This document shows positions 2,699-25,760 of a stretch of 32,000 nucleotides of DNA, piece after piece. A program made the position numbers and the translations under genes. Location: contig SUPR01000030.1 in NCBI GenBank assembly GCA_005191425.1, forward strand, positions 1-32,000, read 5' to 3'. Positions within the stretch are counted from its first letter, which is position 1. The number at the start of each line of letters is the position of its first letter. The stretch is from Candidatus Helarchaeota ASGARD archaeon Hel_GB_B (GTDB taxonomy: Archaea; Asgardarchaeota; Lokiarchaeia; Helarchaeales; HEL-GB-B). A model generated the notes under the pieces. It was not told where the DNA came from. It saw only the letters and a list, made by a program, of their open reading frames with translations, and ran no database searches.

Positions 2699-3685
2699 AT
2701 GAAAAACGATTACGATCTTTTTGTTGAGAAAAGACATTTGATTGATTATATATATCTTTTAAGAGCCTTAAAGTTATCTAAACCAGGTATTATTAAATTA
2801 TTTAAAGATCCGAAAATTACAATTTCCCATTTTAAAGATTTTGAACGAGATAAAATTGTTAAATATCTTTCAACAAAGAAAAACTATTTTAAAAATTATG
2901 AAAAAATAGAAAAATTATTTACTTTAGAATATTGCAACGAAAATTATAAAAGAATTGAAGACATGGTGAATTTTTGTGAATTGAATGATATAAAAATATA
3001 CAAAGCTTATGATAATAAAATTCCAAAAATATTTAAAAATTTAAGTGTTAATAATAGGGATTTAATTTTTATAAAAGGTAGTATTTTGGATTTAGATTTA
3101 AAGTCATATTCTATATGTGGAAGTAGAACTCCGACCCCTATTGCTCTTCAAAAGACTCGCAAAATTGCTCGATATTTGTCTTCTAATAATTTTACCTTAA
3201 TCAATGGATTCGCTAGGGGTATTGATATTGAAGCTTTTAAAGGGACTGCCGATGTAAATGGTAGATATATAGCTATTTTAGCTTCAGGTATTGAGAATAT
3301 TTATCCTCCTGAACATAAAAAATTTGTAAAATATATTGTAAATAATGGTGCATTGGTCTCTCAAAGATTAATCTGGAAGCAGGTAAATAAATTATCATTA
3401 CAAATTCGCAATAGATTATCCGCTAAACTTTCTCTTGGTACTATTTTCATCGAAGGTAATTATAAATCTGGTACAAAATGGCAGCTAAAGTTTGCTAAAG
3501 AAGCAGATAAACCAATATTTTATCTTGAACCTGAAAATTGGGACAATCCAAATTCTCATATACTTAATATCGTAAAAAATGAGGGTGGACATAAAATTAA
3601 TAAGGATTTATCTAATTTAGATGAAATTAAATCTATACTCGAGAAAAAATATCTCGATACTAATATTCATAGGAGAAATAAATAA
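2699..3685 (+). CDS. dprA: DprA/SMF (SLOG family) DNA-processing protein
   Basis: Motifs SICGSRTPT, INGFARGID, AILASGIENIYPPEH, RNRLSAKLS, IEGNYKSGT; about 100 aa Lys-rich N-terminal extension. Confidence 0.88.
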   Translation: MKNDYDLFVEKRHLIDYIYLLRALKLSKPGIIKLFKDPKITISHFKDFERDKIVKYLSTKKNYFKNYEKIEKLFTLEYCNENYKRIEDMVNFCELNDIKIYKAYDNKIPKIFKNLSVNNRDLIFIKGSILDLDLKSYSICGSRTPTPIALQKTRKIARYLSSNNFTLINGFARGIDIEAFKGTADVNGRYIAILASGIENIYPPEHKKFVKYIVNNGALVSQRLIWKQVNKLSLQIRNRLSAKLSLGTIFIEGNYKSGTKWQLKFAKEADKPIFYLEPENWDNPNSHILNIVKNEGGHKINKDLSNLDEIKSILEKKYLDTNIHRRNK

Positions 3686-14363: not shown

Positions 14364-15071
14364 ATGACAGAAGATGAAGATAAAGAGAAAACCGAGGCAT
14401 ATAAGAAGTTTGCCGACAAATTGAAGATTGAGCAGTTAAAAGGAGAAGGAGAAAGGATTCAAGCGCTAAGAAAATTGGTACAAGAGTTTGAAAAAAATTA
14501 TGGTACGGATATTAAGTTAATGCCAGCGGAAATGCAAAATAAATATAGAGAAATGAGGAAACAAGCGGGTCTACCTGAAATTTCTGAAATAGAAGTAATT
14601 GGTCCAATGTCTGAAAAAAAAGAAAACACACCAGCAAATTTGGCTAACATTATATTAAAGTTAGGGATAGGTAGAAAGGACAAGACAGGTGGGCTTATGT
14701 TGCTCTCAGAACTAATTATGTTGTTAAGGACACAGACACCGCTGAAAAAAGTAAAAATAGGAGAAGTCAAAAGAGTATTAAAGAGATTAGAGAAAGAAGG
14801 GCTTATATCCGGCTTAAAAAGATTAAACTCAGGGGTAGAAATAGTTGAATTTTTACCGACCGGGTTTAACAAAGACCAAAACATAATATTATCATTAGCG
14901 TCATCAAATGGGGTTCTTACCTTAGAAGAAATTATGCTTAAATTAAATTGGGCGCAAGAGAGAGTTTTAAGAGTGTTGAAAACATTAGAAAAATCTAATA
15001 TTGCTAAAAGAGACCATAGTTATGCAGCCGGTCAAAAATGGTATTTTCCAGGGTTAATTAAAGACTCATAA
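14364..15071 (+). CDS. vps22: ESCRT-II Vps22/Vps36-like (EAP30/Snf8) protein
   Basis: Collinear with eukaryotic Snf8: LVQEFEKNYGTDIK..., KTGGLMLLSEL, FNKDQNIILSLA..NGVLTLEEIM.KLNWAQERV.RVL..L, terminal KWYFPGL; tandem winged helices. Confidence 0.85.
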   Translation: MTEDEDKEKTEAYKKFADKLKIEQLKGEGERIQALRKLVQEFEKNYGTDIKLMPAEMQNKYREMRKQAGLPEISEIEVIGPMSEKKENTPANLANIILKLGIGRKDKTGGLMLLSELIMLLRTQTPLKKVKIGEVKRVLKRLEKEGLISGLKRLNSGVEIVEFLPTGFNKDQNIILSLASSNGVLTLEEIMLKLNWAQERVLRVLKTLEKSNIAKRDHSYAAGQKWYFPGLIKDS

Positions 15072-16193: not shown

Positions 16194-16286
16194 GATATGA
16201 TGAATGAAATCAACTTATGATTTTGCTCCCACATATTATTTAGATAATATTTACTTTTTAATTGTGTGTCTCTAAAATACAATAAT

Positions 16287-16997
16287 ATGAACGAAAACAC
16301 TCTTTTTGATGTACGAAGCCTTTATATTTTAAAGGACGGAGTGCCAGTTTTTCATTGGCATTATATTAATGACAAAGAATTGAATATAGAAAAAGAAGAG
16401 AAAGATTCGGTTTTAATTTCTGGCTTTTTAAGTGCAATTGTAGTATTTGCAAATGAAATAGGGATCGGAGAGCCCAAGAGTTATTTGACAGATGACATCA
16501 AATTTTCCTTTTTGAATAAAAATGGTTTTCTATTTGTAATTTCTATTGAAAAGGACATCCCTGACGAACAAGCCTATGATTTTTTGAATATAGTTTCCAA
16601 GACATTTATCAAATTATATGATGTAGGTGATTTTCATAACTTACAAGCGATAAATTTCGATGAATTTAAAGAATATTTATTTGAAATAATAAAGAAATTC
16701 AATATAAAAAATATAACAAATGAAAAAATAAATGAGGATGAGATTATAAAAGAAATCCCAAATAAGAGCAATATATATAAAAATTTAATTCCAAAATGCT
16801 ATATTGATTTAGAAAGAAATAAACACTTTTCTAGTTTAAGGCGTACTTTATTTAAATTAATTGATGGGAATATTTCGATATATAATATTGCCCAGAAAAT
16901 GAACTATAACCCACAGGACATTTATTATACACTACGGTCATATGAAAAATTTGGATATATTCAGATCAAAAAAATTGATAATAATGAAGAATCCTAA
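16287..16997 (+). CDS. Longin-domain protein with a C-terminal winged-helix domain
   Basis: SLYILKDGVPVF, LISGFLSAIVVFANEIG, FSFL..NGFLFVI (Asgard longin pattern); C-terminal LFKLIDGNISIYNIAQKMNY..QDIYYTLRSYEKFGYI. The ORF track starts at 16266. Confidence 0.72.
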   Translation: MNENTLFDVRSLYILKDGVPVFHWHYINDKELNIEKEEKDSVLISGFLSAIVVFANEIGIGEPKSYLTDDIKFSFLNKNGFLFVISIEKDIPDEQAYDFLNIVSKTFIKLYDVGDFHNLQAINFDEFKEYLFEIIKKFNIKNITNEKINEDEIIKEIPNKSNIYKNLIPKCYIDLERNKHFSSLRRTLFKLIDGNISIYNIAQKMNYNPQDIYYTLRSYEKFGYIQIKKIDNNEES

Positions 16998-17139
16998 AGA
17001 AAAAGGGCATAAAAATGTAAATAAATAAGGAAAAAAAGTACGAACAAAAAACAAATTTTTTAAAAAATAAACCAAGGTTTTAAGATAAAAGATAGTTTTA
17101 GATGGTATAAAAAAGGTAAACTAGAAATCAAGGGGAGTC

Positions 17140-17334
17140 GAGAAAATATATTTATGCAGAAGCGATAAGGCTCTTCCGTGTTCGGGATGGGTAACGGGTG
17201 TTTCCCTTCACCTATGATCGTGATTAAAGTCACAACCATCCTAAGTTCCCATACACTCTCGTAGTATAGTACAGTTAGGACCGCGTGAAGGCTTAATTCG
17301 GCGTCTTATTACTTCTTTTGCATTATATTTCCTC
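17140..17334 (-). other. RNA processing stem enclosing the 5S gene, with one canonical and one relaxed BHB motif
   Basis: Leader and trailer pair as GAGGAAAUAUA/UAUAUUUUCUC, AUGC/GCAU with AAA bulges on opposite strands, AGAAG/CUUCU and AUAAG/CUUAU. Confidence 0.85.
17173..17296 (-). rRNA. rrf: 5S rRNA gene, circularly permuted (3' half 17296-17230, linker CUUUAA, 5' half 17223-17173)
   Basis: Rejoining the halves gives a 118-nt canonical archaeal 5S: UCACGAUCAUAGGUGAAGGGAAACACCCGUUACCCAUCCCGAACACGGAAG+UUAAGCCUUCACGCGGUCCUAACUGUACUAUACUACGAGAGUGUAUGGGAACUUAGGAUGGUUGUGA. Helices I, II, III and the loop E arm all pair, and the conserved CCGAAC loop C is present. Confidence 0.92.
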
Positions 17335-17864
17335 AAACAGGAAATAAAACGATTTTAAAGGTGTATAGCTTAAATTTTAAGTTATAAATTAAATTAAGAT
17401 TATAAATTACCATAAATAATGAAATTTAAAGTTTTTCTATATAAAAATGAATTATGCAAATTTCAAGTGAAAATTAAATTTTTATGATCAAATGTACATT
17501 TTTAAGACAAATAAAATAAAAAAAATAAATGGTAAAAGAAATTAATTGGAAAAATATATTAATTTTAGAAGTATTAATAAAAATAATTAATGGGATTTGG
17601 AAAACTCCATAAATAAAAATAAATTAAGATTATTCGGGGTTAAAGAATTTTTAAAAGATAGATAAAGGCTATAAATATTAGGAAGTTTCAATAGAAATTG
17701 GAAAATAATTAGATAAAATTTAAATTTCACCAAAAAATATTAATGAATAAAAAAGTAAAAAAATTTAAATAAAATAGATTATATGAAAAAAAGAATTAAT
17801 TTTTAAAAACTTATGAAATAAATACTAAAAATCAATTGGTTAAAATAATTGGAGTAAAGTAATA

Positions 17865-18989
17865 ATGACATTTGGAACCGATAATATATGGACAATGGTA
17901 TATAATGCTATTTTTCTTTTAGTTATAATAATATTTTCATTATATGGACAAAAATTACAGAGTCTTTTTTGGTTGCAATCGATAAAGAATGCTGTAGAAG
18001 AATTAAAATCAATGACATTAAAAGCTAGGGATTTACTTGTAGAAAAAATAAAGGAAATAGGGAAACCAAAAAAAGATCCAAAAGCAGCAGTAAATTCTTT
18101 TCTGGAATTTTTCACAGTTACACCGGTAGATTTAGACCCCGCAGGAGTTATTCAAAGGTTAGAGCATGTATTAGATGTCAGAAAAAATCGTTGGGAAGAG
18201 CAAGTAAAACAGATGGCGCCAGAAGCTAATGAGGTATATGCGGCAAATATTGAGAATGCATTAGAAGCTGCACTTGGGCTCCATCAAATTTTTAAAACTG
18301 TAAGGCATTATTATATTTTAGGTAAAAAGTCAAAAAGCCTAATGGTGATTATGCAGATTCAGATGCAGTTGTCATTAATAATGCAACAAGCTAAAGCAGT
18401 AGAAAATGCTTTAAATGCCTTTATAGAAGGTAAGCCTATTGGTGATAGCGTAGGGCCTTTAGTAGTAACTAAATTGGTCCAAAATTATGGCTCTGAAGGT
18501 AATCCCGTTAAGAAAATTGAAGACTATACAAAAGAAATAAATCTTTATGAATTAAACATTGAGGGCAGAAATGCATTTATTATAAGAGCAAAGGGGCCAG
18601 GTGCAACAGTAGGAAAGCCGGGTGAAGCAATTAAAAAACTATTAAATGAGAAAAAAAATATTTCAAGGTTATTTATGGTGGATGCTGGGTTGAAATTAGA
18701 AGGAGAGAAAACAGGTGCGGTAATTGAAGGTGTAGGTGCGGTAATTGGTGGTTTTGGAGTAGAAAAATACAAAATAGAAGAAGCAGCTGGAGTAAAAAAC
18801 AAATTACCAATGGACGGGTATGTAATAAAAGAATCAATTGAGGATGCTTATGGTCCAATGAAAAAAGAGATTGCTGATGGTGCCGATAAAGCCGTAAAAT
18901 TATTGATCCAAGGAATAAAAGAACGAACTTTAGAGAACGACAATATTATAATTGCTGGAATTGGAAATTGTTGCGGTATAGGCGATTAA
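17865..18989 (+). CDS. DUF1512 family protein (conserved archaeal, N-terminal TM)
   Basis: PVDLDPAGVIQRLEHVL, GDSVGPLV, GPGATVGKPG, MVDAGLKLEGEKTG.V.EGVG.VIGG.G.EKYKIE. Confidence 0.85.
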   Translation: MTFGTDNIWTMVYNAIFLLVIIIFSLYGQKLQSLFWLQSIKNAVEELKSMTLKARDLLVEKIKEIGKPKKDPKAAVNSFLEFFTVTPVDLDPAGVIQRLEHVLDVRKNRWEEQVKQMAPEANEVYAANIENALEAALGLHQIFKTVRHYYILGKKSKSLMVIMQIQMQLSLIMQQAKAVENALNAFIEGKPIGDSVGPLVVTKLVQNYGSEGNPVKKIEDYTKEINLYELNIEGRNAFIIRAKGPGATVGKPGEAIKKLLNEKKNISRLFMVDAGLKLEGEKTGAVIEGVGAVIGGFGVEKYKIEEAAGVKNKLPMDGYVIKESIEDAYGPMKKEIADGADKAVKLLIQGIKERTLENDNIIIAGIGNCCGIGD

Positions 18990-20000: not shown

Positions 20001-20468
20001 TTAAATATTATCCAAATCGCCCAAGGCTGATTTTAAATCTTCTTCTTCATCACTTAGAGCTCCACTTTCAAATGGTGGTTGTTCGCCTAAGAATTCGCTC
20101 AATACTTTCTCTAGTTCAGATGAAGCGGATTTCATTACTAATCTAATCATCCCAATGTTTACGTCTTTATCACTGATTAAACATAAAACGCCTGACCCAC
20201 ATGATGCTGCGAAAATTTTGCCATCATCGAATTCAGAGGTTACTATATTTAAATTTCCAATATCCAATGACCTACCCTGTTCTTCACTAGCACAAAATAC
20301 GGCTGAAGCAATAGCTCCGATCCCATCAACGTCCACGGGATAATAGGAAAATTTAGAAACATGAGCTATTGTTAATCCCGTCCTATCTGCTAAGATAACT
20401 TTTTTGATACCCGGTTCGCTCTTTATAATTCTCGCGAGAATTTTATCGAACGCTTTTACATCCATCAT
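20001..20468 (-). CDS. Roadblock/LC7 (MglB-like) domain protein with an acidic C-terminal tail
   Basis: VILADRTGLTIA, DGIGAIASAVF..SE.QG..L.IG.L....SEF..GKIF; tail SDEEEDLKSALGDLDNI. Confidence 0.85.
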   Translation of the reverse strand: MMDVKAFDKILARIIKSEPGIKKVILADRTGLTIAHVSKFSYYPVDVDGIGAIASAVFCASEEQGRSLDIGNLNIVTSEFDDGKIFAASCGSGVLCLISDKDVNIGMIRLVMKSASSELEKVLSEFLGEQPPFESGALSDEEEDLKSALGDLDNI

Positions 20469-20717: not shown

Positions 20718-23700
20718 CTAATCTTCAATAATTTTGTAATAACCTTCTTTTGGTTGATAAAGTACGCCATGCATTCTAAGAGTATTTAATTCTGATTCGA
20801 CTTGTTCTTCCGAAATTCTAAGCCTACTGGCAGCTTCTTTAATCTCTTCAATCGAAACAGCTTGACCACCTTTTCTTTCTGTTAATTCTCGAATTAATTG
20901 ATTAATTTGGTCTAAACGTCTTCTATGAGTAGTAGTGATACCCGTTTCTATTGCATCGATATCTGAGACACCAGTCTCCTGGTCAATCCCAACCTGTCCT
21001 AAAGAATAAGTCATTAATTGGATCACTGATTGAGCATCTTCAGCAGTTACTTCTTCATGTAATAAAACTTTAGCTCTTGCTTCAGCAAGTCGTATTAATG
21101 CCTCTAAATATCGAGCTGTAATCGGAATTGGTGTCTCTGGATCTGCGCCCGCAATTCGAGTTTGTAAATAAAACTGTTTAATTACTTCTATTGCTTCTTT
21201 GGTTATTCGAGGTTTACAATTTTTCTTAGCATAATAGATATAATTTTTTAAAAGTTCATGATCAATTGGTGGTTCTTGGGGTGTTTCTTCAGAACTTAAT
21301 ATAAAATTTGCCATTCGTTCATCATTTGTAGGACTTGGTTGGTCCCTAATTAAAAATATTAAATCAAATCTCGATAAAATAGTCGGCGGTAATTTCTTAA
21401 TATTCTCCGCAACTGTTTTATATGGGTCATATCTACCTTGAAATGGGTTGGCTGCAGCTAGAATTGACGTCCTTGAATTTAACGTAGCTATTATTCCTGC
21501 TTTTGCTATACTGACCGTATTGTGCAATATGACACCGTGGCTAACAAAATTATGATTTGGTTCAATAGTTATATCATATACCCAAGGAGTAAAATATTCT
21601 TCTTCATTTTTAATTTTCTGAATATCAACAATTTTCAGAAATTTTATGTCTGATTTTATTAACTTTTGGACTGACTTTACTGAACCAATGGTTTTTTCGA
21701 TTTTTTTAATTAAAATATCGATGTTGTCCTTATTTAAACAATTGTCATTATTTTGGTTAATATTCTCAATTAATTCCGAATTTGGGATTAAGTTATTAAC
21801 TATTAATGAAATTTCTGGTTTCAAATTTAAATATGAACTGGATGAATAAGGTGTATTCAAAAGTTTTTTGAGTTTTTGCTGGATTTTGTAGAGTTTATTA
21901 ACTGCCTCGTTTAATAATTTTAGAGCTAGCTCTTTTGTCATTTTAGGCTTGTTTATACCAGTAAATTTAGATAGTGTAGATGAATTTGAACAGATTTTTT
22001 CAGTAATTTTTGTGATTAAATTTTCAATAGGGACGGGAATTGTATCATATTTAAATTGGTCATAGAAAATATCTTTTAAAGCTGGAGTTTGAGGCTCTTT
22101 CTGGTCGAACTGAAGAAATATTTCCTGGACAAATTTTTGAAGTGAGCATGGCGATATAAACAGTTTATGTCTTCTGTTCTCAAATTTGATATAGCTTGAA
22201 ATACCTAATTTTAATAATAAATCTTGCAAATCTTCGCAAATTACTTTTTTCTGACACACAAAGTATATTTTTTGCTCAAAAATTTCTCCAATAGTCCTAA
22301 AAGTAGCGGTTAAAAAAGATTTGGCTATTTCTTTACTTGCACCCAGTATTTTTGATGGGACACGTTTATTATTATTATCCATTAATTCAGGAAAATTTAT
22401 TTTGAACCAGTAATAGAGGTCATAAGAGTCATAATAGACTACTGTATAGTCAATCAGATTTAATTTCTGAATTGGTATTATTCCAAATAAATCATTTAAA
22501 AGCCGGGCGACCTCATTTATTATATTTTTAGATAAATTTGAAAACTGAATTTGAGTTGAAATATCTGAATTTAAATTACCAGAAGTGAAAAAATGTCCAA
22601 CAAGTTCAGCTACCTCTAATGTTAGGAGATTTGGCTCTTTTTTTACCTGTAATTTAGTTATAAAATTATGGTCTAACGCAATTGGTTTCGTAGAATTAGG
22701 TAAATAACGAGGGGCTGGTATATAATCACCTATTGAGCAATTTTCTGCTTTAACACAGTCTATATTGAGTCCATTTAATTTAAATACAGGGTGTTCTGGA
22801 GTAACAATTATTGACCTACCATTTGAAAATTCTATCTTGTAAAAATTGCTTGGAGCTATATGTCGGCTTAATCTATTTATCCTACTTTTATAAATTTGTT
22901 CAAAATCTGTAGTATATAGTCCTATATCTTGAAATGGAAGTATTTCACAATTAATACCTTTGACCACTTCTTTTGGACGCGATTCAATTGCGTCATCAAT
23001 GAATTCGCCAATTTTAATTTTTCTTCCGTCAATAAGTAAAATTTCAGTATTTGGGTGGAAACATAGTTGTTCCATGGACTCATGAATAGAAATACGATCT
23101 TCGGGCCTCATTTTATCAAATTCATCAATGGCAGCCAGACCTTGATCTGCTAATACGAGTACTCCTGCTTCAAGTGAGAGATTTCCTGTATCTTTATCTC
23201 TTAATACGCTCGCGGTTAAGCCAGCCGCACTTGTACCTTTACCACTTGTATATATCCCTCTTGGTGCTATTAATGCTGCACTTTTTAGGATTTGACTATT
23301 ATGGAAAATTACATGACCATTGGCAAGGATAAAATGGTTATTCTCAGTCCCTATATCATATACATATTCAAACTCATTTTCTAATTTAGTTATTGAAATA
23401 ATTTTGTCCCAAAAAACATTTTTGTTTATTGAAGTTCCTAAAATCTTGGCATCTTGATACTTTTTATTTAAGTTATGAGTACATCTCTTTAAAGCCAGGA
23501 TTGTTCCTAGACATTCGGATAATACTTTTTGATTATTAAAATCAAGTAATTTAGGTTGAATAAATCTTTGAGGGATGGTACCTAAAGAAATACCCGTTCT
23601 ATTTATTTCCGTGTCTAATAGATTAAGCTTATTATAAGAATAGACATGGTGTTCCCGCTTTACTCTCAAATATAAATTTTTTTGTTCTTTATTATTTATA

Positions 23701-25760
23701 AAATAACATAATTTAAAAAATTTGACCAAGTCGCTTTTTAATATTAATAATTTATAGTCAATAACATTATTTCTTTTATGTGATTTTGTACTGACTTTAA
23801 TAATACTCTGTATTCCAAGTAAATTTAATAAATCTCTTAAATTTAACAATAATCTTTTTGATTTTGATCGGATTCCAAGTACATTTCTCTTGTTTATTTT
23901 ACTTTTTCCTGAGAAATAACCTGAAATAAATCCCTGTAAGAAGGGTCTAGGTGCATAGAAAAAGAGTTCTGGAACGCTTTTAACACCATTAAAATAAAAA
24001 AGTTTCTTGAATACCTCCCTAATAACAACGGAACGATATTTTATAATGTTTTTGTACGTAGTATAACTTTTGAAATTTAGTTTAAAATCTTTTTCTAATT
24101 GTATTTTAATATCTTCATCGAAATATGATATGCTTATGCCATCCTTTTCTATCCGGCCATTTGCTAAAAATAATCCAAAAATTCTGCCCAGTGATTCAGT
24201 TAAACATAATTTGTCCAAGTCAATATTTTTTTGATTTCCTCTTAAAGTCCTATTTTTTTTATAATTAATTAAATTTTCAAGCTGATTTGTTCTTTTATTT
24301 AAGAGATCGGAAATTTCAATTAATTTGACTTCTTTAAAGGAGTCAATTTTCCTTGATATTGGTAAATAATCACCTAATTCAAGGTCAGACATATTTCTTA
24401 ATATTAACTTACCATTTTTTAAAGTAGTAAATGAATGGTTACCTGTCGCCTTAATTATAATACCTGATTGAAGTTTAATTTCATAAATTTCTAAACTTTT
24501 ATGTCTGCTTACTTCTAATATCTTGGAAATTTCTGGTCTAAAATAATCAAAATTAAATGATTGAGTATAAAAATCTTCTAGTCCTTTTAAGTCTAAAATT
24601 TCAGTGTCTTTATATTTAATTATTCGATTTTTATATTTACTTAATAAAGTGTCAACAAAATTACCGATTTTGTATTTTATTTTCCAATCATCAAGGGAAT
24701 TATTATAGAGGTAAATTTCTTCATTATAATGGACACTCTTACCAACTCCTGGATCGCCTACTAAAAGGACATGGATTTGACCTCTTCTTGTGGTGCCATC
24801 TTTTCTCAACCTAGATACACCCGAAAAAAGTTGTAATAAAACTGCCTCCTTAATTTCTTCAAGTCCATAAATTGAAGGTGCCACTGATTTAATTAATTTA
24901 CGGTATACCCACGGGTCATTTGCTAGTTGTTTTATTTCTTCTTCTTGTTCCGCCGTAATCTGTAAATTTTCTATTTCAACTTCTTGTTTCTCGATGTGAT
25001 TGATATCTATAAAGGTTTTAAAAATAGTTAATTTTCCTTGTTGAGATGATTCTTGCTTCGCTTTCAAAATTCCAACGATATTAACTCTATCGCCTGGCCT
25101 TGCTAAATCGACAATATCTTCTAATAAATAACCGTCCATAAATCTGGGCATTTGTCCAGGAGGTAGTTCTTCAGGTTTTTCTTGAACCCGGATTTTCTGC
25201 CAATCAATGTATGTAGATCGTTCTAATAACAATTTAAATGGGCCCTTTTTATTACATTGTGGACAAATTAATGGTTTTGTAAATTCATTATCTTCTTGGT
25301 CAACAGGAATTATTGCTTCATTACAACTTAAACACTTGAATACCCCTCGTATCATTAATGGGACTACTTTATTAACTCTTGTTAAAATACCACTTATTTG
25401 GATCAATTTGCCGATGTGATTTGCCCTAATTTTTCGCAGATTAATTCTATTGGTAGGTTCAAGATTTCTAAACCTAGCATGAAATTTGTCTACCTGGTAC
25501 GCATATTCTTCGCTAATTATTCTCAATCTGTGCTTTATCGCAAGTGATGCCATTTCAATATAAAATTCAGGAGATTCTAACAACTTTCTTGCCAATTCCG
25601 AATCAAATCTCAATAAATCATCATAATCAATTGTAAGCGAGATACTTGCACTTAATTCCATTTGTCCTATCATATCATCATATTTTCTAGAACCATTTTC
25701 ATCTATATAATCGCTAAAAAATGTTTCAAATCTGGCTACAATATCGGCAGAATCTTCCAT
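20718..25760 (-). CDS. mcm: MCM replicative helicase precursor with two inteins (685 aa after splicing)
   Basis: Zn finger CLSC..CPQC, Walker A GDPGVGK/SQ, Walker B IDEFDKM, AAANP, arginine finger LSRFDL, C-terminal winged helix; SD-like GAGGT at 25769-25773. Confidence 0.97.
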   Translation of the reverse strand: MEDSADIVARFETFFSDYIDENGSRKYDDMIGQMELSASISLTIDYDDLLRFDSELARKLLESPEFYIEMASLAIKHRLRIISEEYAYQVDKFHARFRNLEPTNRINLRKIRANHIGKLIQISGILTRVNKVVPLMIRGVFKCLSCNEAIIPVDQEDNEFTKPLICPQCNKKGPFKLLLERSTYIDWQKIRVQEKPEELPPGQMPRFMDGYLLEDIVDLARPGDRVNIVGILKAKQESSQQGKLTIFKTFIDINHIEKQEVEIENLQITAEQEEEIKQLANDPWVYRKLIKSVAPSIYGLEEIKEAVLLQLFSGVSRLRKDGTTRRGQIHVLLVGDPGVGKSVHYNEEIYLYNNSLDDWKIKYKIGNFVDTLLSKYKNRIIKYKDTEILDLKGLEDFYTQSFNFDYFRPEISKILEVSRHKSLEIYEIKLQSGIIIKATGNHSFTTLKNGKLILRNMSDLELGDYLPISRKIDSFKEVKLIEISDLLNKRTNQLENLINYKKNRTLRGNQKNIDLDKLCLTESLGRIFGLFLANGRIEKDGISISYFDEDIKIQLEKDFKLNFKSYTTYKNIIKYRSVVIREVFKKLFYFNGVKSVPELFFYAPRPFLQGFISGYFSGKSKINKRNVLGIRSKSKRLLLNLRDLLNLLGIQSIIKVSTKSHKRNNVIDYKLLILKSDLVKFFKLCYFINNKEQKNLYLRVKREHHVYSYNKLNLLDTEINRTGISLGTIPQRFIQPKLLDFNNQKVLSECLGTILALKRCTHNLNKKYQDAKILGTSINKNVFWDKIISITKLENEFEYVYDIGTENNHFILANGHVIFHNSQILKSAALIAPRGIYTSGKGTSAAGLTASVLRDKDTGNLSLEAGVLVLADQGLAAIDEFDKMRPEDRISIHESMEQLCFHPNTEILLIDGRKIKIGEFIDDAIESRPKEVVKGINCEILPFQDIGLYTTDFEQIYKSRINRLSRHIAPSNFYKIEFSNGRSIIVTPEHPVFKLNGLNIDCVKAENCSIGDYIPAPRYLPNSTKPIALDHNFITKLQVKKEPNLLTLEVAELVGHFFTSGNLNSDISTQIQFSNLSKNIINEVARLLNDLFGIIPIQKLNLIDYTVVYYDSYDLYYWFKINFPELMDNNNKRVPSKILGASKEIAKSFLTATFRTIGEIFEQKIYFVCQKKVICEDLQDLLLKLGISSYIKFENRRHKLFISPCSLQKFVQEIFLQFDQKEPQTPALKDIFYDQFKYDTIPVPIENLITKITEKICSNSSTLSKFTGINKPKMTKELALKLLNEAVNKLYKIQQKLKKLLNTPYSSSSYLNLKPEISLIVNNLIPNSELIENINQNNDNCLNKDNIDILIKKIEKTIGSVKSVQKLIKSDIKFLKIVDIQKIKNEEEYFTPWVYDITIEPNHNFVSHGVILHNTVSIAKAGIIATLNSRTSILAAANPFQGRYDPYKTVAENIKKLPPTILSRFDLIFLIRDQPSPTNDERMANFILSSEETPQEPPIDHELLKNYIYYAKKNCKPRITKEAIEVIKQFYLQTRIAGADPETPIPITARYLEALIRLAEARAKVLLHEEVTAEDAQSVIQLMTYSLGQVGIDQETGVSDIDAIETGITTTHRRRLDQINQLIRELTERKGGQAVSIEEIKEAASRLRISEEQVESELNTLRMHGVLYQPKEGYYKIIED
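21519..23063 (-). mobile_element. MCM intein 2 (515 aa) with a degenerate LAGLIDADG homing endonuclease
   Basis: Begins CFHPNTE after MEQL and ends VYDITIEPNHNFVSHGVILHN before TVSIAKAG; block B TPEHPVF. Confidence 0.93.
23298..24737 (-). mobile_element. MCM intein 1 (480 aa, Ser-initiated) in the Walker A motif, with a degenerate LAGLIDADG homing endonuclease
   Basis: Begins SVHYNEE after GDPGVGK and ends VYDIGTENNHFILANGHVIFHN before SQIL; block B TGNHSF. Confidence 0.93.

What the first reader, a model, noticed from the sequence alone, without database searches (positions are those of the whole stretch)
17173..17296. Genomically encoded, circularly permuted archaeal 5S rRNA gene
Seen in the sequence: on the minus strand the 3' half of 5S (UUAAGCC...GGUUGUGA, 67 nt) comes first. 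A 6-nt linker CUUUAA follows, then the 5' half (UCACGAUC...CCGAACACGGAAG, 51 nt). The linker closes helix I as a hairpin, so the native ends are joined and the new ends lie between helix III and loop B. Each half occurs once and every helix pairs, so it looks functional rather than decayed. Established precedents: permuted tRNA genes (Cyanidioschyzon, Thermofilum), permuted SRP RNA (Thermoproteus), permuted organellar 5S (brown algal mitochondria), and circular rRNA intermediates in archaea. I know of no permuted 5S gene on an archaeal chromosome. Inference: the RNA matures through a circle, and either stays circular with a capped helix I or is reopened in the linker. Standard linear 5S models would report only fragments, so such genes could be overlooked in Asgard genomes.
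Basis: partly seen in the sequence, partly recalled or inferred. Interest (0 to 1): 0.97.

Follow-up and report, generated by a model that had tools for sequence, protein, structure and literature searches.

The report
Permuted, ring-forming Asgard 5S rRNA gene
This Asgard archaeon encodes its only detectable 5S ribosomal RNA with the two halves in swapped order between tRNA-splicing cut signals, so the transcript must be cut out and joined into a ring to restore a normal 5S; RNA from a related Asgard archaeon shows exactly such a ring.

Summary
Minus strand 17296-17173 reads 3' part of 5S (67 nt), a 6-nt cap closing helix I, then the 5' part (51 nt).

- **Detection:** Rfam finds only two sub-threshold half-hits here and no other 5S in the genome. 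After rotation, a profile of canonical Asgard 5S gives one full-length hit.
- **Flanks:** They form two nested bulge-helix-bulge (BHB) splice motifs.
- **Enzymes:** The genome encodes two splicing-endonuclease subunits and RtcB ligase.
- **Conservation:** The fold and the BHB covary across relatives. A permuted-gene model hits 97 of 151 sampled Asgard genomes, including closed ones. Canonical 5S is confined to a few families.
- **RNA:** In metatranscriptomes, the homologous gene of Atabeyarchaeum is covered only between the predicted cut sites. One contig wraps around (123 + 30 nt), showing the predicted junction and a retained helix-I cap.

No RNA run holds this genome's own locus. Whether the ring itself sits in the ribosome is not shown.

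No paper I could search describes this. This scan has noted it before on other DNA (110 notes, at least 80 genomes).

The parts
17424..17437 (-). Candidate archaeal BRE/TATA promoter (GAAAAAC-TTTAAAT)
   Evidence: This block is conserved between this genome and the same-genus genome G001 in otherwise diverged upstream DNA. The promoter role is inferred, not tested.
17324..17336 (-). Outermost processing helix, 5' strand (13 bp with 17138-17150)
   Evidence: It is the base of the minimum-free-energy fold of the precursor (z = -4.3).
17317..17323 (-). Outer BHB, 5' half: central-helix strand AUGC (17323-17320) and bulge AAA (17319-17317). Predicted cut between 17318 and 17317.
   Evidence: G001 has GUAC/GUAC at the same place, so all four pairs are changed and kept.
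17303..17316 (-). Spacer helix, 5' strand (AGAAG, UA, AUAAG, A, C), between the two BHBs
   Evidence: It pairs with 17158-17171. It is 21 nt from the outer cut to the inner cut.
17296..17302 (-). Inner BHB, 5' half: central-helix strand GCCG (17302-17299) and bulge AAU (17298-17296). Predicted cut between 17297 and 17296.
   Evidence: The first pair of the central helix is a G.A mismatch here. G001 has UCCG/CGGA, a perfect 4 bp.
17230..17296 (-). 3' part of 5S rRNA (67 nt): loop B side, helix II 3' strand, helices V and IV with loops E and D, helix I 3' strand
17224..17229 (-). CUUUAA loop capping helix I (joins the ancestral 3' and 5' ends)
17173..17223 (-). 5' part of 5S rRNA (51 nt): helix I 5' strand, loop A, helix II 5' strand, helix III and loop C
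17172..17178 (-). Inner BHB, 3' half: central-helix strand CGGA (17178-17175, which is also the helix III 3' strand) and bulge AGA (17174-17172). Predicted cut between 17173 and 17172.
17158..17171 (-). Spacer helix, 3' strand
17151..17157 (-). Outer BHB, 3' half: central-helix strand GCAU (17157-17154) and bulge AAA (17153-17151). Predicted cut between 17152 and 17151.
   Evidence: The outer cuts would release 166 nt.
17138..17150 (-). Outermost processing helix, 3' strand
17109..17114 (-). T6 tract, candidate archaeal terminator
   Evidence: Seen in the sequence. Inferred only.

Best explanation
This is the functional, single-copy 5S rRNA gene of a Helarchaeales-type Asgard archaeon, encoded in circularly permuted order.

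1. It is transcribed on the minus strand from its own promoter as a precursor of about 200-300 nt.
2. The flanks of the precursor pair into a long stem that holds two nested bulge-helix-bulge motifs.
3. The tRNA-splicing endonuclease cuts two nucleotides into each 3-nt bulge. This genome has two EndA-type subunits.
4. RtcB joins the ends.
5. The inner cuts release window 17296-17173 as a 124-nt ring. The new junction GGAAG|UUAAG rebuilds the loop B / helix III region of a normal 5S. The old 5S termini stay joined by the CUUUAA cap on helix I.
6. The outer BHB probably acts first or in parallel, releasing a 166-nt form from which two 21-nt spacers (42 nt in all) are removed.

Shown here: the permutation, the conserved fold, the BHB geometry, the enzymes, and, in a relative, the ligated junction in RNA. 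Inferred: that this genome's own transcript is processed the same way (about 0.85), and that the closed ring, not a reopened linear form, is what sits in the ribosome (about 0.6).
For: - **Layout and detection:** The layout is. Rfam gives two half-hits and the genome holds no other 5S. The rotated sequence gives one full-length profile hit of 59 bits, and all 27 permuted relatives tested do the same.
- **Fold in the f1-f3 group:** The permuted fold with a capped helix I has 92.0% of cells paired. 21 of 34 pairs have changes on both sides, 0 of 500 shuffles reach this, and slid controls give 32-44%.
- **Fold in the f4 group:** 93.3% of cells are paired.
- **BHB and outer helix:** 91.8% of cells are paired, and 11 of 14 pairs have changes on both sides.
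- **The cut rule restores a canonical 5S everywhere:** Cutting after the second bulge nucleotide gives 119-124 nt in every lineage. This holds in a subclade whose breakpoint has moved 17 nt into loop C, and with 1-2 nt differences of breakpoint between classes.
- **Second, outer BHB:** It is canonical (13-bp helix, 4-bp helix, two AAA bulges, 6-bp helix). It is conserved with four compensatory pairs in the same-genus genome.
- **Enzymes:** Two EndA genes and one RtcB gene are present.
- **Phylum-wide distribution:** The permuted model hits 97 of 151 genomes, including single-contig genomes that have no RF00001 hit above the cut-off.
- **RNA in a relative (Atabeyarchaeum deiterrae, L135):** RNA contigs of three metatranscriptomes cover only 3558-3680, the span between the predicted cuts. 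A 153-nt contig wraps 3680 to 3558 (123 + k-1). Loose ends read CACGGA|AGUUAAG. Contigs run through the helix-I cap.
- **Independent DNA:** Metagenome runs of nine studies hold part or most of this window's locus.
Against: - No RNA data exist for this organism.
- Its inner BHB is relaxed. It has a G.A mismatch in the central helix and an A.C mismatch next to the closing pair of the flanking helix.
- Its cap is an unremarkable hexaloop, not a UNCG tetraloop.
- The genome is 93.7% complete in 182 contigs, so an unassembled canonical 5S cannot be strictly excluded here. It is excluded in closed genomes of relatives.
- Assembled RNA contigs show that junction-spanning and cap-spanning molecules exist. 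They do not show that these are the same molecules, or that they are the ribosomal form.
- I could not run Infernal RF00001 on the rotated sequence. A profile HMM stood in for it.
Confidence: 0.8

Rival explanations
1. The ring is only an intermediate. After ligation the helix-I cap is cut, as happens with permuted tRNAs, and the ribosome receives an ordinary linear 5S of about 118 nt.
For: Permuted tRNA genes mature this way (Soma et al. 2007, cited in PMC4267664). Circular pre-16S and pre-23S rRNAs are classically described as reopened (PMC12918454). This genome's cap is a plain 6-nt loop.
Against: The cap is a very stable UNCG-type tetraloop in most lineages. It varies freely in sequence and length, so no conserved nuclease site is visible. 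RNA contigs of the relative run uninterrupted through the cap in several species variants. No 5S end-maturation signal is evident. The circular SRP RNA of Thermoproteus stays circular.
Confidence: 0.15
2. The precursor is cut at the BHB but not ligated. The mature 5S is then a linear, permuted RNA with its ends in loop B / helix III, as in the permuted mitochondrial 5S of brown algae.
For: Permuted linear 5S exists in organelles (PMC4267664). Nothing measures ligation in this organism.
Against: Junction-spanning RNA is seen in three runs for the relative. RtcB is present. The breakpoint drifts by 1-17 nt between lineages while the ligated product stays canonical. That is expected if the break is erased.
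Confidence: 0.04
3. In this genus only the outer, canonical BHB is used. The product is a 166-nt ring in which 5S carries a 42-nt helical extension at the loop B / helix III site.
For: The outer BHB is textbook and the inner one is imperfect in this genome.
Against: The inner BHB is perfect in the same-genus genome and conserved in every other lineage. In Atabeyarchaeum, which also has an extra outer site, the RNA ends at the inner site. An insertion there would disrupt a conserved 5S region.
Confidence: 0.06
4. It is a decayed pseudogene or an assembly artefact, and the real 5S lies in an unassembled part of the genome.
For: The genome is a 182-contig draft.
Against: The same arrangement, with compensatory changes, occurs in about 100 genomes, including closed chromosomes that have no canonical 5S. 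The locus occurs in independent metagenome runs. The homologue is abundant in RNA.
Confidence: 0.01

Closest known systems
Permuted, circularised SRP RNA of Thermoproteus tenax (Plagens et al. 2015, eLife, PMC4731332; abstract read)
   Same: It is a chromosomal gene for a universal structured RNA encoded in permuted order. Its termini lie in a motif cut by the tRNA-splicing endonuclease. The ends are ligated to a functional, stable circular RNA. The canonical gene is undetectable by standard models.
   Different: The RNA is different (5S rRNA, a ribosome component). The distribution is different: most of a phylum rather than a few species. This locus has two nested BHBs. Function of the ring in the ribosome is not yet shown.
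Circularly permuted tRNA genes (Cyanidioschyzon merolae, Soma et al. 2007; cited in PMC4267664)
   Same: The 3' half is encoded upstream of the 5' half. A BHB-like motif is formed by the flanks. A circular RNA arises by cut and ligation.
   Different: There the circle is an intermediate that is reopened at the joined native ends by the normal tRNA end-processing enzymes. Here the native ends are closed by a short stable cap with no evident processing signal.
Permuted mitochondrial 5S rRNA of brown algae (Valach et al. 2014, PMC4267664)
   Same: In this 5S, helix I is replaced or closed by a hairpin and the ends lie elsewhere. It too was missed by standard 5S models.
   Different: It is organellar. 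It is permuted in the final linear product. It has no BHB and no ligation, and the termini lie at the junction of domains alpha and gamma.
Circular archaeal rRNAs: circular pre-16S and pre-23S, permuted 23S of Pyrococcus, circular mature 23S (PMC7758197 and PMC12918454)
   Same: Excision at a BHB in a processing stem is followed by ligation. A circular rRNA may reside in the ribosome.
   Different: Those genes are collinear, and circularisation joins the native ends. PMC12918454 explicitly says that 5S is not known to be circularised. Here the gene order itself is permuted, so ligation is needed to build the canonical sequence.

Membership tests
5S rRNA (Rfam RF00001) | Scores above the family's gathering threshold (38 bits) as one collinear match | tested here: not met
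   The best hits are 24.0 and 19.9 bits, two partial matches. This is expected for a permuted gene.
5S rRNA (Rfam RF00001) | Full-length sequence likeness to canonical 5S once the two parts are put in canonical order | tested here: met
   A profile HMM of 14 canonical Asgard 5S genes gives one hit, model 6-109, 59.0 bits, E 3e-19 on the rotated sequence. The native order gives two half-hits. Infernal itself could not be run on the rotated sequence.
5S rRNA (Rfam RF00001) | Five helices (I-V) supported by covariation, with conserved loop C (CCGAAC) and loop E (GUAC / GGGAA) motifs | tested here: met
   92.0% and 93.3% of cells are paired. 21 of 34 and 17 of 33 pairs have changes on both sides. 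0 of 500 shuffles reach these values. The motifs are visible.
5S rRNA (Rfam RF00001) | It is the 5S of the ribosome (incorporated, binds uL18 and uL5) | not testable with these tools
   Indirect evidence only: there is no other 5S in this genome or in closed relatives.
Bulge-helix-bulge substrates of the archaeal splicing endonuclease | 4-bp central helix flanked by two 3-nt bulges on opposite strands, each 3' of its central-helix strand, with flanking helices | tested here: met
   The outer motif is canonical: 13 bp, then AUGC/GCAU with AAA and AAA bulges, then 6 bp. The inner motif has the right geometry but a G.A mismatch in the central helix; it is perfect in G001. The motif covaries across seven genomes.
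Bulge-helix-bulge substrates of the archaeal splicing endonuclease | Endonuclease and RtcB ligase are encoded by the organism | tested here: met
   PF01974 gives two loci (98.6 and 75.1 bits). PF01139 gives one locus (568.5 bits).
Bulge-helix-bulge substrates of the archaeal splicing endonuclease | RNA is actually cut two nucleotides into each bulge and the ends are joined | tested here: inconclusive
   This is met for the homologous gene of Atabeyarchaeum: RNA covers only 3558-3680 and shows the junction CACGGA|AGUUAAG. No RNA run holds this window's locus.
Permuted genes matured into stable circular RNA (Thermoproteus SRP RNA type) | The mature functional molecule is the closed circle | not testable with these tools
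   A circular unitig and cap-spanning contigs in a relative are compatible with this. They do not show which form is in the ribosome.

The most novel reading that the evidence does not exclude
[quoted passage not shown] It is made from a permuted gene by the tRNA-splicing machinery. The permutation is old within the phylum, and breakpoints later moved because ligation erases them. This would be the first cellular 5S rRNA with no ends. It would also explain why 5S genes were reported as undetectable in closed Asgard genomes.
Probability: 0.55. Interest if true: 0.93.

Novelty: new variant of a known kind. Interest (0 to 1): 0.88.

Why it matters
- **A universal molecule:** 5S rRNA is universal, and its gene is assumed to be collinear in all cells.
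- **An unexplained gap:** A paper on closed Heimdallarchaeum genomes states that 5S genes could not be predicted (PMC8813620). MAG quality standards count 5S. The permuted layout explains that gap and gives a search model.
- **A wider job for the splicing machinery:** The tRNA-splicing machinery would be essential for making a ribosome component across most of a phylum.
- **A testable case:** It makes a ring-shaped ribosomal RNA testable in the archaeal lineage nearest to eukaryotes.

Tried and rejected
- **RNAalifold on the mixed alignment A1:** It found only the three hairpins. Helices II and V were shifted between the two groups, so I counted pairs on two separate alignments.
- **Unconstrained BHB scans:** These were swamped by chance matches in AT-rich flanks. 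Anchoring on the 5S ends was needed.
- **Minimum-free-energy folds of this sequence:** Linear or circular, they give helices I, IV and V but not II and III. The comparative evidence carries those two helices.
- **RNA for this locus:** No RNA holder is listed.
- **Nanopore RNA run X18:** Nothing was laid.
- **Pattern scan of all genomes, non-Asgard matches:** It also matched four Thermoplasmata or 'Euryarchaeota' MAGs. I checked two of them, and Rfam shows ordinary collinear 5S genes there (74-80 bits). The match came from a CCAUAG motif just downstream, so that was a false lead. One 'Nanopelagicaceae' record carries a Lokiarchaeia-type sequence and is probably misbinned.
- **The sigma-70 and terminator scan:** It does not apply to archaea.
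- **Literature:** Eight full-text searches found no description of a permuted or circular archaeal 5S. Subscription journals are not covered.
- **Infernal on the rotated sequence:** It could not be run, because the tools take only stored references. An HMM test replaced it.

Full report
**What is in the sequence**

On the minus strand, 17296-17230 reads the 3' two-thirds of a 5S rRNA. This covers the loop B side, helix II 3' strand, helices V and IV with the GUAC/GGGAA loop E signature, and helix I 3' strand GGUUGUGA. Positions 17229-17224 are CUUUAA. Positions 17223-17173 read the 5' third: helix I 5' strand UCACGAUC, loop A CAUAG, helix II 5' strand, and helix III with loop C CCCAUCCCGAAC, ending CACGGAAG.

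**Detection by standard models**

- Rfam at gathering threshold reports nothing in the 32-kb window.
- With relaxed thresholds it reports two adjacent partial RF00001 matches of 24.0 and 19.9 bits. The cut-off is 38.
- The whole assembly has 3.54 Mb in 182 contigs and is 93.7% complete. It holds no other RF00001 match.
- It holds one match to my permuted model.

I could not feed a rotated sequence to Infernal. Instead I built a profile HMM from 14 collinear 5S genes of other Asgard families and ran nhmmer.

- The native locus gives two half-hits in swapped order: model 50-109 upstream and model 5-61 downstream.
- The rotated sequence gives one hit over model 6-109, 59.0 bits, E 3e-19.
- All 27 permuted relatives I had extracted behave the same way.

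**It is a conserved, folded RNA**

Among 41 genomes of the same class (this one included), 31 had only sub-threshold RF00001 hits, often as adjacent pairs. Only one family had ordinary 5S genes. I extracted the loci, aligned them, and counted pairs for the 5S fold written in permuted order, with helix I closed by a loop.

| Alignment | Genomes | Cells paired | Pairs changed on both sides | Shuffles reaching this | Slid controls |
|---|---|---|---|---|---|
| A3 | This genome and six others from three families | 92.0% | 21 of 34 | 0 of 500 | 32-44% |
| A2 | Eleven genomes of a fourth family | 93.3% | 17 of 33 | 0 of 500 | 34-46% |

Helix I is capped mostly by 4-nt loops, commonest UUCG, also UACG and UCCG. 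This genome has a 6-nt loop.

Immediately outside the 124 nt, the 5' flank GCCG pairs with CGGA at the end of the 5' part. Each strand is followed by a 3-nt bulge (AAU, AGA), and then by a helix formed by the two flanks. This is the geometry of the archaeal bulge-helix-bulge motif, with each bulge 3' of its central-helix strand.

In pre-tRNAs the endonuclease cuts after the second bulge nucleotide. That is established knowledge, and it is consistent with positions 37|38 of tRNA introns. It also gives a ligated junction GGAAG|UUAAG, the canonical 5S sequence.

- In this genome the first pair of the central helix is G.A. The same-genus genome G001 has U-A there.
- Across the seven genomes of alignment A3, the 4-bp helix plus 10 bp of flank helix are 91.8% paired. 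11 of 14 pairs have changes on both sides.
- The rule restores a canonical 5S of 119-124 nt in every lineage examined.
- It also holds in a Lokiarchaeia subclade whose breakpoint has moved 17 nt into loop C. There the flank reads CUGG-AA|CCAUCCGAAC and the other end reads ACCCGG-UC|A.
- It holds in other classes whose breakpoint differs by one or two nucleotides.

A breakpoint that wanders while the ligated product stays constant is what one expects if ligation erases the break.

**Peculiar to this genus: a second, outer BHB**

It lies 21 nt outside each inner cut. It consists of a 13-bp helix, AUGC/GCAU, two AAA bulges and a 6-bp helix. G001 has GUAC/GUAC at the same place. The precursor's minimum-free-energy fold is built on this stem (-64 kcal/mol, z = -4.3). 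The outer cuts would release 166 nt. The inner cuts then remove two 21-nt spacers, 42 nt in all.

**Enzymes**

The genome encodes two EndA-family proteins (98.6 and 75.1 bits to PF01974) and one RtcB (568.5 bits to PF01139). Two EndA paralogues suggest a heteromeric enzyme. From my own knowledge, that type accepts relaxed BHBs. Earlier notes of this scan list BHB introns in protein-coding genes of this genome. I did not check those.

**Distribution**

A covariance model of the permuted gene matches 97 of 151 sampled Asgard genomes, most at 60-138 bits, in nearly every family sampled. RF00001 exceeds its cut-off in 49 of the same 151, concentrated in a few families (26/26, 17/19, 3/5) where the permuted model finds nothing or only weak cross-hits. 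Six single-contig genomes have the permuted gene and no RF00001 hit above the cut-off.

I then ran an exact pattern that can only match the permuted order over one genome per prokaryote species. It gave 107 stretches. Among the 80 listed by name were:

- Heimdallarchaeum aukensis and H. endolithica (closed; two matches in the latter)
- two closed Atabeyarchaeia chromosomes
- Odinarchaeia and Hermodarchaeota
- Helarchaeota Hel_GB_A
- Loki_b31 and Loki_b32
- Asgardarchaeum abyssi

The paper that published the closed Heimdallarchaeum genomes states that 5S genes could not be predicted by any approach (PMC8813620).

**RNA**

No RNA run holds this window's locus. DNA runs of nine studies do hold part or most of it. 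For the homologous gene of Atabeyarchaeum deiterrae (L135), three metatranscriptome runs hold it. Their contigs, laid on the locus, show the following:

- They cover 3558-3680 only, with nothing on either flank.
- Those ends are exactly two nucleotides into the AGA and GAU bulges of its BHB.
- One contig is 153 nt long. It runs 3558-3680 and then starts again at 3558. 153 is 123 + 30, the length of a circular unitig if, as I assume from my own knowledge, these contigs were assembled with words of 31 letters.
- Loose ends at both borders read the other border, giving CACGGA|AGUUAAG.
- Contigs of the exact sequence and of variant species run through the helix-I cap.

So in a relative the RNA exists in the ligated form, without flanks and with the cap retained. 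Contigs cannot show that junction and cap lie on the same molecules, nor give stoichiometry.

**What this means for this locus**

| Claim | My odds |
|---|---|
| The gene is the organism's real 5S gene | About 0.97 |
| Its transcript is cut at the BHB and ligated into a 124-nt ring | About 0.85 |
| The ring, not a reopened linear form, is the ribosomal 5S | About 0.6 |

Support for the third claim is indirect:

- The stable, sequence-variable caps and the cap-spanning RNA contigs.
- The Thermoproteus SRP RNA precedent (PMC4731332).
- From my own memory and unchecked: engineered E. coli ribosomes that tolerate a 5S whose native ends are joined by a loop.

**Known and new**

The mechanism (permuted gene, BHB, ligation) is known for tRNAs and for the SRP RNA of Thermoproteus. 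Circular 23S rRNA in archaeal ribosomes was reported in 2025-2026, and that paper says 5S is not circularised (PMC12918454). Permuted 5S is known only from brown-algal mitochondria. There it is linear and unligated (PMC4267664). Eight full-text searches found no report of a permuted or circular archaeal 5S.

This scan has flagged the same thing on other DNA, with 110 notes in at least 80 genomes. Those follow-ups reached the same reading. A look-up for earlier notes mentioning metatranscriptome junction evidence found none. The nested double BHB of this genus did not appear in the notes returned to me either, but I ran no look-up for it.

Noticed in passing
L006, L007, L013, L015, L017, L022, L068 (Lokiarchaeia relatives): A second breakpoint type. 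The permuted gene starts 17 nt earlier, in loop C, yet the BHB rule still restores the same canonical 5S. This suggests repeated re-permutation, for example through tandem duplicates.
   Followed up: partly
L031, L046, L051, L052 (loop C); L006, L017, L022, L024 (helix IV region); L025 (helix I cap): Insertions of about 30 nt lie inside otherwise normal permuted 5S genes. By eye, the loop C one folds as a BHB-type intron (UCCG/CGGG central helix, AAG and AAC bulges). These 5S genes may therefore be both permuted and intron-bearing.
   Followed up: partly
L135:3681-3725 and L092 (Atabeyarchaeia): The 5' flank carries the CGUG-ARA half-site twice, separated by a 29-nt hairpin-bearing insert. The RNA begins at the inner site, so an extra excision step or alternative pairing exists there. 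This loosely parallels the double BHB of this window.
   Followed up: partly
window 14364-15071 (+), 16266-16997 (+), 20001-20468 (-), 17865-18989 (+): The neighbours are typical Asgard 'eukaryotic signature' genes: an EAP30/Vps36-like winged-helix protein, a weak Longin-domain match (24.5 bits, just under Pfam's 26.2 cut-off), and a Roadblock/LC7 protein. There is also a DUF1512 protein. None is obviously linked to 5S.
   Followed up: no
window 20718-25760 (-): A 1680-aa open reading frame, not examined.
   Followed up: no
G000 contigs C36:44408-44659 and C98:28593-28853 (L169, L170): There are two separate EndA-family genes (open frames of 192 and 218 aa). This suggests a heteromeric splicing endonuclease, the type reported to accept relaxed BHB motifs.
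   Followed up: no
L104:6109-6191, L118:5874-5956, L094, L132 (Thermoplasmata-type MAGs): In L104 and L118, ordinary collinear 5S genes (74-80 bits) are followed directly by a short hairpin and a CCAUAGCGGC motif resembling a 5S start. This made them match my permuted-order pattern. L094 and L132 look the same but were not run against Rfam. What the downstream element is remains unexplained.
   Followed up: partly
Asgard families f10, f15, f19, f5, f13, f29: Collinear 5S genes persist in a minority of Asgard families, including one family inside the otherwise permuted class of this genome. The gene order has therefore switched more than once. The direction of the switches is unknown.
   Followed up: no
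L128 (record labelled Nanopelagicaceae bacterium) and L076 (labelled Thorarchaeota): Both carry a Lokiarchaeia-type permuted 5S nearly identical to loci of family f4. They are probably misbinned or mislabelled contigs.
   Followed up: no
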